Shown piece by piece: positions 1 to 3,000 of a DNA stretch of 64,000 nucleotides. Made by a program: the position numbers. The DNA comes from Escherichia coli O157:H7. GTDB lineage: Bacteria > Pseudomonadota > Gammaproteobacteria > Enterobacterales > Enterobacteriaceae. Numbering within the stretch: the first letter of the stretch is position 1; each line of letters begins with the position of its first letter. The stretch lies in NCBI RefSeq assembly GCF_013167455.1, contig NZ_CP038328.1. One strand, written 5' to 3'.

Positions 1-3000
1 TTGAAGGCCTGCGCCGTTTGCGCGAAATCCTGCAAACGCAGGGGCTGAATATCGAAGCGCTGTTCCGCGAGTAAGTAAGCATCTGTCAGAAAGGCCAGTC
101 TCAAGCGAGGCTGGCCTTTTTCTTTTGTTTGGGAAGCTTGTGTTTTTGTCGCCTGGATAAGACACGTCAGCGTCCTACCCGGCAATTTGCATCCTATGTG
201 TTCATCATCTTGCGCACCAGCTGCACAAACAGCTCCTGCTCTTCTGCACTCAAACGCCCCAAAAATTCCTCATCCACGCTGTCACCAATCGGTATCGCCG
301 CAGCAAGTATCTTTTCTCCTTCGGCAGTCAGCCAGACAAAGCGACGCCGCTTGTCAGCGGCATCATGTTCACGTCTGACTAAGCCACGATTCTCCATTCT
401 TGCCAACATTTCTGCCAACGTTGCTTTGGTGCTGACTGCTGCTTCTATCAGTGCCACCTGTTCGATACCAGGCTTATCAGCAATGGCGCGCATCACCGCA
501 TACTGTGGTTTGGTCAGGTCAGGTAACTCGTGCTGCCAGCGAGCCGTGTGCTGCTGAAAAAGCTGTCGTAACTGATGGAACGCTTTATTTCGTAACGTCA
601 TGTAAACTCCGGGCAAACTATCTGCCGCTATCATAGCGGTTTTTCAGTGACGAAGGGGATGTTGTTACTTTTCAGTGCTTGCCGCAATGAGAACAGAGGC
701 GTATTTTAATAATAATGTTCGTATACGAACAATTAAGAGAGTAAGCAATGAAACTGATCGTCGGGATGACAGGGGCTACCGGTGCGCCTCTTGGTGTGGC
801 ATTACTGCAAGCGCTGCGGGAGATGCCGAATGTCGAGACTCATCTGGTGATGTCGAAGTGGGCGAAAACCACCATTGAACTGGAAACGCCTTACAGCGCC
901 CGCGATGTTGCTGCCCTCGCTGACTTCAGCCATAACCCGGCGGATCAGGCGGCGACCATCTCCTCAGGTTCCTTTCGTACAGACGGCATGATCGTTATTC
1001 CGTGCAGTATGAAAACGCTCGCCGGTATCCGCGCTGGTTACGCTGATGGCCTGGTAGGGCGCGCGGCGGACGTCGTGCTTAAAGAAGGCCGCAAACTGGT
1101 GCTGGTGCCGCGTGAAATGCCGCTTAGCACCATCCATCTCGAAAATATGCTCGCACTTTCACGCATGGGCGTGGCGATGGTGCCGCCGATGCCTGCCTTT
1201 TATAACCATCCCGAAACGGTAGATGACATTGTCCACCACGTGGTAGCCCGCGTGCTGGATCAATTTGGCCTTGAACATCCCTACGCCAGGCGCTGGCAAG
1301 GATTGCCGCAGGCCCGGAATTTTTCTCAGGAGAATGAATAATGGCATTTGATGATTTACGCAGCTTTTTACAGGCGCTTGATGACCACGGCCAGTTACTG
1401 AAAATCAGCGAAGAGGTGAACGCGGAACCGGATCTGGCTGCCGCTGCCAACGCCACCGGGCGTATCGGCGATGGTGCACCGGCGCTGTGGTTTGATAATA
1501 TTCGCGGTTTTACCGATGCCCGCGTGGCGATGAATACCATCGGTTCCTGGCAGAACCACGCGATTTCCTTGGGCCTGCCGCCAAACACCCCGGTTAAAAA
1601 ACAGATTGATGAGTTTATCCGCCGCTGGGATAACTTCCCGATCGCCCCGGAGCGCCGCGCCAATCCAGCCTGGGCGCAGAACACCGTCGATGGTGACGAG
1701 ATTAATCTGTTCGATATCCTGCCGCTGTTTCGTTTAAACGACGGTGATGGCGGTTTCTATCTCGACAAAGCGTGCGTGGTTTCCCGCGATCCGCTCGACC
1801 CGGATAACTTCGGCAAGCAGAACGTCGGTATCTACCGCATGGAAGTGAAGGGCAAGCGTAAGCTCGGCCTGCAACCGGTGCCGATGCACGATATCGCCCT
1901 GCATCTGCATAAAGCGGAAGAGCGCGGTGAAGATCTGCCGATTGCCATCACCCTGGGTAACGATCCGATCATCACCCTTATGGGCGCCACGCCGCTGAAA
2001 TACGATCAGTCTGAGTATGAAATGGCAGGCGCGCTGCGCGAAAGCCCGTACCCGATCGCCACCGCGCCATTGACTGGTTTTGATGTGCCGTGGGGTTCAG
2101 AAGTGATCCTCGAAGGGGTTATCGAAAGCCGCAAACGCGAAATCGAAGGGCCGTTCGGTGAGTTTACCGGGCACTACTCCGGCGGGCGTAACATGACCGT
2201 GGTGCGTATCGATAAAGTCTCTTACCGCACCAGGCCGATTTTCGAATCGCTGTACCTCGGCATGCCGTGGACCGAAATCGACTACCTGATGGGGCCAGCC
2301 ACCTGTGTGCCGCTGTATCAACAACTGAAAGCCGAGTTCCCGGAAGTGCAGGCGGTAAACGCCATGTACACCCACGGCCTGCTGGCGATTATCTCCACCA
2401 AAAAACGCTACGGCGGCTTTGCCCGCGCGGTGGGCCTGCGTGCGATGACCACGCCGCACGGTCTGGGCTACGTAAAGATGGTGATTATGGTCGATGAAGA
2501 CGTTGACCCGTTCAACCTGCCGCAGGTGATGTGGGCGCTCTCCTCGAAAGTAAATCCGGCAGGGGATTTGGTGCAGTTGCCGAATATGTCCGTGCTGGAA
2601 CTCGACCCTGGCTCAAGCCCGGCGGGGATCACCGACAAGCTGATTATCGACGCCACCACGCCTGTCGCCCCGGACAACCGTGGTCACTACAGCCAGCCGG
2701 TGGTGGATTTGCCGGAAACCAAAGCCTGGGCTGAAAAACTGACCGCTATGCTGGCCGCACGTAAATAAGGAGAACAAGATGATTTGTCCACGTTGTGCCG
2801 ATGAACAGATTGAAGTGATGGCGAAATCGCCGGTGAAAGATGTCTGGACGGTATATCAGTGCCAGCATTGCCTTTATACCTGGCGCGATACCGAACCGCT
2901 GCGCCGTACCAGCCGCGAACATTATCCCGAAGCGTTCCGCATGACGCAGAAAGATATTGATGACGCGCCAATGGTGCCGAGCATCCCGCCGCTGCTGGCG

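What the first reader, a model, noticed from the sequence alone, without database searches (positions are those of the whole stretch)
1..126. Unidentified upstream ORF ending at the window edge
Only 23 C-terminal codons are visible, followed by a clean terminator. Its identity determines what flanks the decarboxylase island on the far side and therefore how large the accessory segment is.
Basis: seen in the sequence. Interest (0 to 1): 0.2.

Follow-up and report, generated by a model that had tools for sequence, protein, structure and literature searches.

The report
End of the rpoS gene
The cut-off gene at the left edge of the window is the last 23 codons of rpoS, the E. coli general stress sigma factor, plus its terminator hairpin; this is the well-known rpoS border of the variable mutS-rpoS region in E. 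coli O157:H7, so the finding is ordinary.

Summary
Frame 3 of the + strand is open from the window edge to TAA at 72-74, giving 23 codons (EGLRRLREILQTQGLNIEALFRE*). A strong hairpin (88-121, -24 kcal/mol) and a T-rich tail follow.

The ORF is the 3' end of rpoS. Window 1-8100 is base-for-base identical to E. coli O157:H7 PV15-279. There, a 993-nt (330-aa) rpoS downstream of nlpD ends exactly at window 74. Window 1-120 is also 100% identical to K-12.

This settles the size of the accessory segment. Homology to K-12 stops at 120/121 and resumes at 3057, the pphB stop. The window-specific block is therefore 2,936 bp: a MarR regulator plus VdcB/C/D-type hydroxyarylic acid decarboxylase genes. K-12 carries 6,097 bp (ygbI-ygbN) in its place. 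This is the published "2.9 kb O157:H7 insert" of the mosaic mutS-rpoS region.

Of 5,426 complete E. coli genomes, 803 share the exact O157-type arrangement. About 1,576 appear to have the island plus ygbN-ygbI. The rest lack the island.

One thing cannot be settled. The closest genome, FRIK1989 (1 mismatch in 45 kb), has a nonsense rpoS allele (E155*). Five other relatives have intact rpoS. So whether the source strain's rpoS is intact is unknown.

Nothing here is novel.

The parts
3..74 (+). 3' end of rpoS: codons 308-330 of the 330-aa RNA polymerase sigma factor RpoS (sigma-S/sigma-38) plus the TAA stop. It covers the end of sigma region 4 and the C-terminal tail.
   Evidence: Translation. 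Window 1-8100 is identical to O157:H7 PV15-279, where the annotated rpoS (993 nt) ends at window 74. Window 1-120 is 100% identical to K-12 rpoS and its downstream sequence. The full-length protein of the identical-flank genome hits the NCBIfam RpoS equivalogs NF004207 (603.8 bits, cutoff 394) and TIGR02394. Pfam Sigma70_r4 covers residues 262-315.
88..131 (+). Intrinsic (Rho-independent) terminator of rpoS: a hairpin at 88-121 and a T-rich tail to about 131.
   Evidence: Terminator scan. Folding gives -24.0 kcal/mol for the hairpin and z = -4.2 for the context. The hairpin is kept in all four structural types of the locus. A sub-threshold Rfam hit to ctRNA_p42d (28.7 bits against a gathering score of 50) merely reflects the terminator shape.
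121..3056 (.). [quoted passage not shown] K-12 has 6,097 bp (ygbI-ygbN) here instead.
   Evidence: blastn of the window against K-12 finds homology only at 1-120 and from 3057 onward. The literature describes a 2.9-kb O157:H7 insert (PMC4209514).
144..174 (.). Degenerate REP-like sequence just inside the variable segment.
   Evidence: It matches a REP unit in the naRNA4 locus at 55003-55080 at 24 of 30 positions. There is no second close copy in the window. The evidence is weak.
194..601 (-). MarR-family regulator, called slyA-like or kpdR in the literature. It converges on rpoS.
   Evidence: RefSeq annotation of the identical sequence. NCBIfam MarR-type hits are all below the equivalog cutoffs. 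The longest ORF extends to 634.
748..1341 (+). Hydroxyarylic acid decarboxylase subunit B (UbiX-type flavin prenyltransferase).
   Evidence: NCBIfam NF041206 VdcB scores 311 bits against a cutoff of 290. Annotation.
1341..2768 (+). Hydroxyarylic acid decarboxylase subunit C (UbiD family).
   Evidence: NCBIfam NF041204 VdcC scores 790.5 bits against a cutoff of 650.
2779..3015 (+). Hydroxyarylic acid decarboxylase subunit D.
   Evidence: NCBIfam NF041205 VdcD scores 121.2 bits against a cutoff of 30.
3056..3712 (-). pphB (serine/threonine phosphatase 2), the first core gene on the far side of the variable segment.
   Evidence: NCBIfam NF007425 scores 472.6 bits against a cutoff of 332. K-12 homology resumes at 3057.
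3818..6379 (-). mutS.
   Evidence: ORF list and annotation of the identical sequence.

Best explanation
Window 1-126 is the 3' end of rpoS followed by its Rho-independent terminator. rpoS encodes the stationary-phase/general stress sigma factor of E. coli, and the visible part covers residues 308-330. The source is an E. coli O157:H7-lineage chromosome. Transcription enters from the nlpD-rpoS unit upstream of the window and translation stops at TAA 72-74. The RNA hairpin at 88-121 with its U-rich tail then releases the transcript before the convergently oriented MarR-family gene. The terminator also marks the constant left border of the polymorphic mutS-rpoS intergenic region. In this strain that region holds only the 2,936-bp MarR + decarboxylase BCD module, which abuts pphB-mutS directly. 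Shown: the identity of the sequence, the position of the stop, the hairpin, the breakpoints and the population distribution. Inferred: that the hairpin terminates transcription in vivo, and that rpoS upstream of the window edge is full length.
For: The 23-aa translation is EGLRRLREILQTQGLNIEALFRE*. It equals the C-terminus of RpoS in both O157:H7 PV15-279 and K-12 MG1655.

Window 1-3100 is 100% identical to many O157:H7 chromosomes, which annotate rpoS under the match. Window 1-8100 is identical to PV15-279, where rpoS (993 nt, downstream of nlpD) ends at window 74. Window 1-120 is 100% identical to K-12.

The full-length protein from that genome passes both NCBIfam RpoS equivalog cutoffs. It matches the PDB RpoS chains 5ipl_F and 6kj6_F end to end.

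The Keio delta-rpoS strain JW5437-1 matches only window 54-120. From my own knowledge of the Keio design, that is the residual 21 nt (six codons plus stop) followed by the terminator.

Terminator evidence. Breakpoints. Literature on the mosaic mutS-rpoS region and the 2.9-kb O157:H7 insert: PMC4209514.
Against: The window holds only 72 coding bases, so the reading frame alone is not beyond chance (P about 0.37). The window cannot show that the gene upstream is intact. FRIK1989, the closest complete genome (1 mismatch in 45,000 bases), carries rpoS with an internal stop, E155*. No complete genome is an exact match to the whole window, because the base at 24039 is unique. The source strain's rpoS allele therefore cannot be read off a database record. 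Termination at the hairpin was not measured.
Confidence: 0.97

Rival explanations
1. The edge fragment is rpoS sequence, but in the source strain rpoS is a null or pseudogene allele (nonsense, frameshift or deletion upstream of the window). In that case the 23 codons are not translated as part of a functional sigma factor.
For: FRIK1989 differs from the window by 1 base in 45 kb, and its rpoS is annotated as a pseudogene with an internal stop at codon 155. A review notes that RpoS levels in O157:H7 are strain-dependent and cites work on natural rpoS mutations in O157:H7 strains (PMC7527412).
Against: Five of the six relatives examined have an intact 330-aa rpoS: PV15-279 and FDAARGOS_293, FRIK944, ECP19-2498 and 7409 (all WP_000081550.1). 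The FRIK1989 nonsense mutation is one of its three rpoS base differences from PV15-279. The other close relatives are annotated with an intact rpoS.
Confidence: 0.12
2. The open frame at the window edge is a chance ORF or part of some other gene, for example another sigma-70-family paralogue, and not rpoS.
For: A 23-codon open stretch is expected by chance about one time in three. Two minus-strand frames are also open across 1-126.
Against: The sequence is 120/120 identical to the K-12 rpoS 3' end and terminator. It is 100% identical, with conserved synteny, to the annotated rpoS in O157:H7 genomes. 5,414 of 5,426 genomes match the query, and in every row inspected that covers window 1-120 or more the feature under the match is rpoS.
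Confidence: 0.01

Closest known systems
rpoS of E. coli K-12 MG1655 (b2741) and its downstream terminator
   Same: The last 72 coding bases, the stop codon and the hairpin are identical (window 1-120, 100%). The gene neighbourhood nlpD-rpoS is the same in the matching O157:H7 genomes.
   Different: The sequence diverges from base 121, inside the T tract. K-12 reads TTTTCTGTGCACAAT and then the ygbN terminator and ygbN. The window reads TTTTTCTTTTGTTTG and then the MarR/decarboxylase module. Upstream allelic differences such as E33Q and Q188K lie outside the window.
mutS-rpoS polymorphic intergenic region, O157:H7/EHEC-1 type (pattern I of Ewers et al. 2014, PMC4209514; the '2.9 kb insert')
   Same: The gene order is rpoS | slyA-like MarR (kpdR) | kpdB | kpdC | kpdD | pphB | mutS. 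The variable block measures 2,936 bp. 803 of 5,426 complete genomes share the direct subunit D-pphB junction.
   Different: There is no structural difference. The window differs from complete genomes only by point differences elsewhere, such as 24039.
Larger mosaic form (E2348/69 or YL3 type, pattern IV)
   Same: The rpoS end, the terminator and the MarR + BCD module are the same up to window 3027.
   Different: That form keeps ygbN-ygbI (about 6 kb) between subunit D and pphB. In the window those genes are absent, and a 29-35-nt hairpin-containing spacer (about 3022-3056) joins subunit D to pphB.
VdcBCD / EcdBCD-type non-oxidative hydroxyarylic acid decarboxylases (UbiX/UbiD system)
   Same: The three ORFs next to the finding pass the NCBIfam VdcB, VdcC and VdcD cutoffs.
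   Different: This is not part of the finding itself. Substrate and physiological role in O157:H7 were not tested here.

Membership tests
RpoS (NCBIfam NF004207 / TIGR02394 equivalogs) | The visible residues match the RpoS C-terminus in sequence and register. | tested here: met
   The 23 of 23 residues and the stop codon are identical to RpoS of K-12 and O157:H7. DNA identity is 120/120.
RpoS (NCBIfam NF004207 / TIGR02394 equivalogs) | The full-length protein scores above the curated equivalog cutoff. | tested here: met
   Tested on the rpoS of PV15-279, whose sequence is identical to window 1-8100. It scores 603.8 bits (cutoff 394) and 480.2 bits (cutoff 378.7). The window itself holds only 23 codons.
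RpoS (NCBIfam NF004207 / TIGR02394 equivalogs) | The gene is intact (330 aa) in the source strain. | not testable with these tools
   The upstream sequence is outside the window. No complete genome equals the window exactly. Among six relatives, five are intact and one has a nonsense allele.
RpoS (NCBIfam NF004207 / TIGR02394 equivalogs) | Conserved synteny: nlpD immediately upstream. | tested here: met
   The order pcm-nlpD-rpoS is seen in all fetched genomes with enough upstream sequence. nlpD-rpoS is also seen. This is inferred for the source.
Intrinsic (Rho-independent) terminator | A G+C-rich stem-loop immediately followed by a T (U) tract downstream of a stop codon. | tested here: met
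   The stem at 88-121 has 15 pairs and a 4-nt loop, with tail CTTTTGTTTG. It folds at -24 kcal/mol, z = -4.2.
Intrinsic (Rho-independent) terminator | Transcript 3' ends map to the T tract in vivo. | not testable with these tools
   No transcript data are available here.
O157-type mutS-rpoS intergenic arrangement (pattern I, PMC4209514) | The gene order is rpoS, MarR/slyA-like, decarboxylase B, C, D, pphB, mutS, with no ygb genes. | tested here: met
   ORFs and annotation. There is no K-12 ygbI-N homology in window 1-7500.
O157-type mutS-rpoS intergenic arrangement (pattern I, PMC4209514) | The variable block is about 2.9 kb. | tested here: met
   It measures 2,936 bp, window 121-3056. The paper cites 2.9 kb.

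The most novel reading that the evidence does not exclude
The breakpoints of all four structural types of the mutS-rpoS region fall within a few bases of each other, in the T tract of the rpoS terminator (window 120-127). A degenerate REP-like sequence lies about 20 nt further in. The hairpin or REP-like element could therefore be an active recombination or deletion hotspot that generates the mosaic, rather than a passive limit set by selection to keep rpoS and its terminator. Separately, the source strain might carry an undescribed rpoS allele upstream of the window.
Probability: 0.1. Interest if true: 0.25.

Novelty: already known. Interest (0 to 1): 0.05.

Why it matters
It matters only as bookkeeping for the window. 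It fixes the left flank of the decarboxylase module as the core gene rpoS. It sets the size of the variable block at 2,936 bp. It identifies the locus as the long-studied mutS-rpoS polymorphic region of the E. coli O157:H7 type. One practical caution follows: rpoS is frequently mutated in O157:H7 isolates, so anyone using this strain should check the allele that lies just outside the window.

Tried and rejected
(1) Rfam, whole window at gathering thresholds and 1-3200 at E<=1. No RNA family lies in 1-700 apart from a sub-threshold ctRNA_p42d hit on the hairpin (28.7 bits against 50). I read that as generic terminator shape, not a ctRNA.

(2) Inverted repeats flanking the variable block, 175-188 against 3019-3032 (14 nt, 93%). 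These are at chance level for a 3.3-kb region, with about one such pair expected by my estimate. Five other pairs of similar length and quality were reported. I rejected them as transposon-like ends.

(3) REP element at 144-174. A 24-nt pattern search with up to 3 mismatches found no second copy in the window. Only a 24/30 local alignment to a REP unit in the naRNA4 locus turned up. I kept this as a weak note.

(4) Identifying the exact source strain so as to read its rpoS. This failed. The best genome, FRIK1989, differs at 24039, and none of 5,426 complete genomes carries the window's base there.

(5) A bidirectional terminator serving the convergent MarR gene as well. The scan did not flag the minus strand, and by eye the minus-strand tail TTTCTGACAG is T-poor. 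Not supported.

(6) A paper search for the decarboxylase in O157 returned only two tangential papers.

Full report
**Observation**

On the + strand only frame 3 is open from the window edge. It runs from base 3 to a TAA at 72-74 and reads EGLRRLREILQTQGLNIEALFRE* (23 codons). Frames 1 and 2 have stops at 46-48 and 2-4.

An open run of 23 codons is not informative by itself. From window composition P is about 0.37, and two minus-strand frames are also open over 1-126. The identification therefore has to come from homology.

The terminator is clear. The scan finds a hairpin at 88-121 with a 15-pair stem, 7 of them G-C, and a 4-nt loop, followed by CTTTTGTTTG. The hairpin alone folds at -24.0 kcal/mol. 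The 66-nt context folds at -27.3 kcal/mol with z = -4.2, and none of 200 shuffles folds as well.

**Identity**

A megablast of window 1-3100 against 5,426 complete E. coli genomes gave 100% matches over the full length in many O157:H7 chromosomes. All of them annotate rpoS under the left end of the match.

Fetching one of them, PV15-279, with 5 kb of extra flank effectively extends the window upstream. The order there is ispF-truD-surE-pcm-nlpD-rpoS. rpoS is 993 nt (330 aa) and ends exactly at window position 74. Window 1-8100 is identical to that record base for base.

That protein passes both NCBIfam RpoS equivalog models: NF004207 at 603.8 bits (cutoff 394) and TIGR02394 at 480.2 bits (cutoff 378.7). 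It also aligns end to end with the RpoS chains of solved RNA polymerase holoenzyme structures such as 5ipl_F and 6kj6_F. Pfam places sigma region 4 at residues 262-315. The 23 visible residues (308-330) are therefore the end of region 4 plus the C-terminal tail.

Window 1-120 is also 100% identical to K-12 MG1655. A small independent check comes from the Keio delta-rpoS strain JW5437-1, which matches only window 54-120. From my own knowledge of the Keio design, that is the 21 nt (six codons plus stop) the deletion leaves behind, followed by the terminator.

**What this says about the neighbouring island**

Compared with K-12, homology covers window 1-120 and then resumes at 3057, the stop-codon end of pphB. 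It continues through mutS, ygbA and fhlA (97.3% over 4,416 bases). The window-specific block is 121-3056, or 2,936 bp. K-12 has 6,097 bp (ygbI-ygbN) in its place.

The block holds four genes:
- a MarR-family regulator (194-601, minus strand);
- decarboxylase subunit B (748-1341);
- decarboxylase subunit C (1341-2768);
- decarboxylase subunit D (2779-3015).

All three decarboxylase ORFs score above the curated NCBIfam cutoffs for the VdcB/C/D-type non-oxidative hydroxyarylic acid decarboxylase.

This is the published mosaic mutS-rpoS intergenic region. Ewers et al. 2014 (PMC4209514) describe four patterns. They cite the "2.9 kb insert" of O157:H7 and name the genes slyA/kpdR and kpdB, kpdC, kpdD.

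**Population picture**

I could see all four types in complete genomes:
1. O157 type: rpoS | MarR-BCD | pphB.
2. YL3 type: rpoS | MarR-BCD | ygbN-ygbI | pphB.
3. K-12 type: rpoS | ygbN-ygbI | pphB.
4. B2 type, e.g. AR_0055: rpoS | flavodoxin + MBL hydrolase | ygbN-ygbI | pphB.

2,379 of 5,426 genomes carry the MarR-BCD module next to rpoS. A query spanning the subunit D-pphB junction is covered in one piece in 803 genomes. By subtraction, about 1,576 carry the module with a different right flank. That flank was checked directly in one genome. A further eleven sampled rows stop at 3022-3027.

Direct comparison of the junctions shows that the K-12 sequence after the rpoS hairpin joins the same ygbN terminator that follows subunit D in YL3. 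The K-12 and O157 forms thus each look like the larger form minus one module.

In all four types the constant sequence ends at window 120-127, within the T tract of the rpoS terminator.

**What cannot be decided**

The window does not show whether rpoS is intact in its source. The best-matching complete genome is FRIK1989, with 1 mismatch in 45,000 bases, at 24039. Its rpoS is annotated as a pseudogene with an internal stop, which I located at codon 155 (GAG to TAG).

Five other relatives have an intact 330-aa gene: PV15-279, FDAARGOS_293, FRIK944, ECP19-2498 and 7409. No complete genome carries the window's base at 24039, so the exact source is not in the collection. A review notes that RpoS levels in O157:H7 are strain-dependent and cites work on natural rpoS mutations in O157:H7 strains (PMC7527412). 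I put the chance of a null allele in the source at roughly 0.1.

**Mechanism**

The shown steps are the sequence identity, the stop codon, the hairpin with its T tract and the breakpoints. The inferred steps follow from established knowledge of intrinsic terminators and of the nlpD-rpoS transcription unit. Transcripts from the rpoS promoters upstream end at the U tract after the 88-121 hairpin. This insulates rpoS from the convergent MarR-family gene, whose stop is at 194-196. The minus-strand side of the hairpin has a T-poor tail and was not flagged by the scan, so I do not claim bidirectional termination.

**Other checks**

Rfam finds no RNA family in the region apart from a sub-threshold ctRNA hit that simply mirrors the terminator shape. 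Short inverted repeats near the two ends of the block are at chance level. A degenerate REP-like sequence at 144-174 matches a REP unit at 55003-55080 at 24 of 30 positions and has no other close copy.

**Verdict**

The feature is the rpoS 3' end plus its terminator, at the known rpoS border of the O157-type mutS-rpoS region. It is already known and of low interest.

Noticed in passing
window 24039: A single base in the ascF-ascG intergenic region is present in none of 5,426 complete E. coli genomes; the best hits to a 61-nt query are all 98.4%. It is the only difference from strain FRIK1989 over window 1-45000. It could be a private SNP, a sequencing error, or an edit.
   Followed up: partly
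window ~37238 (srlA, 37045-37607, minus strand) and srlE (about 36087-37048): There is a 1-nt deletion in srlA relative to O157:H7 PV15-279 (AAGATAACAAAC against AAGATAAACAAAC). It is shared with FRIK1989, where srlA and srlE are both annotated 'frameshifted'. From my own knowledge, this fits the sorbitol-negative phenotype of O157:H7.
   Followed up: partly
window 120-127: All four structural types of the mutS-rpoS region (O157, YL3, K-12, B2/AR_0055) diverge from one another within the T tract of the rpoS terminator. The hairpin is therefore the fixed left border of the mosaic.
   Followed up: yes
window 144-174: A degenerate REP-like sequence (GCCTGGATAAGACACGTCAGCGTC) sits just inside the variable block. 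It matches a REP unit in the naRNA4 locus at 24 of 30 positions and is also present in strain YL3.
   Followed up: partly
L004 4082-5074 (FRIK1989 rpoS, upstream of the window equivalent): The closest complete genome has a nonsense mutation in rpoS: codon 155 GAG to TAG, annotated 'internal stop'. This is an example of natural or laboratory rpoS loss in O157:H7.
   Followed up: yes
window 3022-3056: The spacer joining decarboxylase subunit D to pphB is a short hairpin-containing sequence (GCCGGGTAGTGGCTTTGCTTTACCCGGC). It is absent from both the YL3-type and the K-12-type junctions, and its origin is unclear.
   Followed up: partly
window 194-634 (minus strand): The start of the MarR-family gene is ambiguous. 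The longest ORF starts at 634 (146 aa), whereas RefSeq annotates the ATG at 601 (135 aa).
   Followed up: no
window 6455-6589 (+): A 44-aa ORF between mutS and ygbA is annotated in RefSeq genomes as a hypothetical protein (WP_000611932.1). It was not examined.
   Followed up: no
window 44792-45420, 48334-48405, 55003-55080: Rfam hits elsewhere in the window are a cluster of five tRNA genes (annotated as one Ser and four Arg in the matching genome), MicA sRNA (minus strand) and naRNA4/REP (minus strand). These are as expected for this E. coli chromosomal region.
   Followed up: no
window 7056-9134 (minus strand): RefSeq records label the formate hydrogenlyase activator gene 'flhA' while describing the product as the formate hydrogenlyase activator. 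K-12 calls it fhlA. This appears to be a gene-symbol slip in the annotation, not a sequence feature.
   Followed up: no
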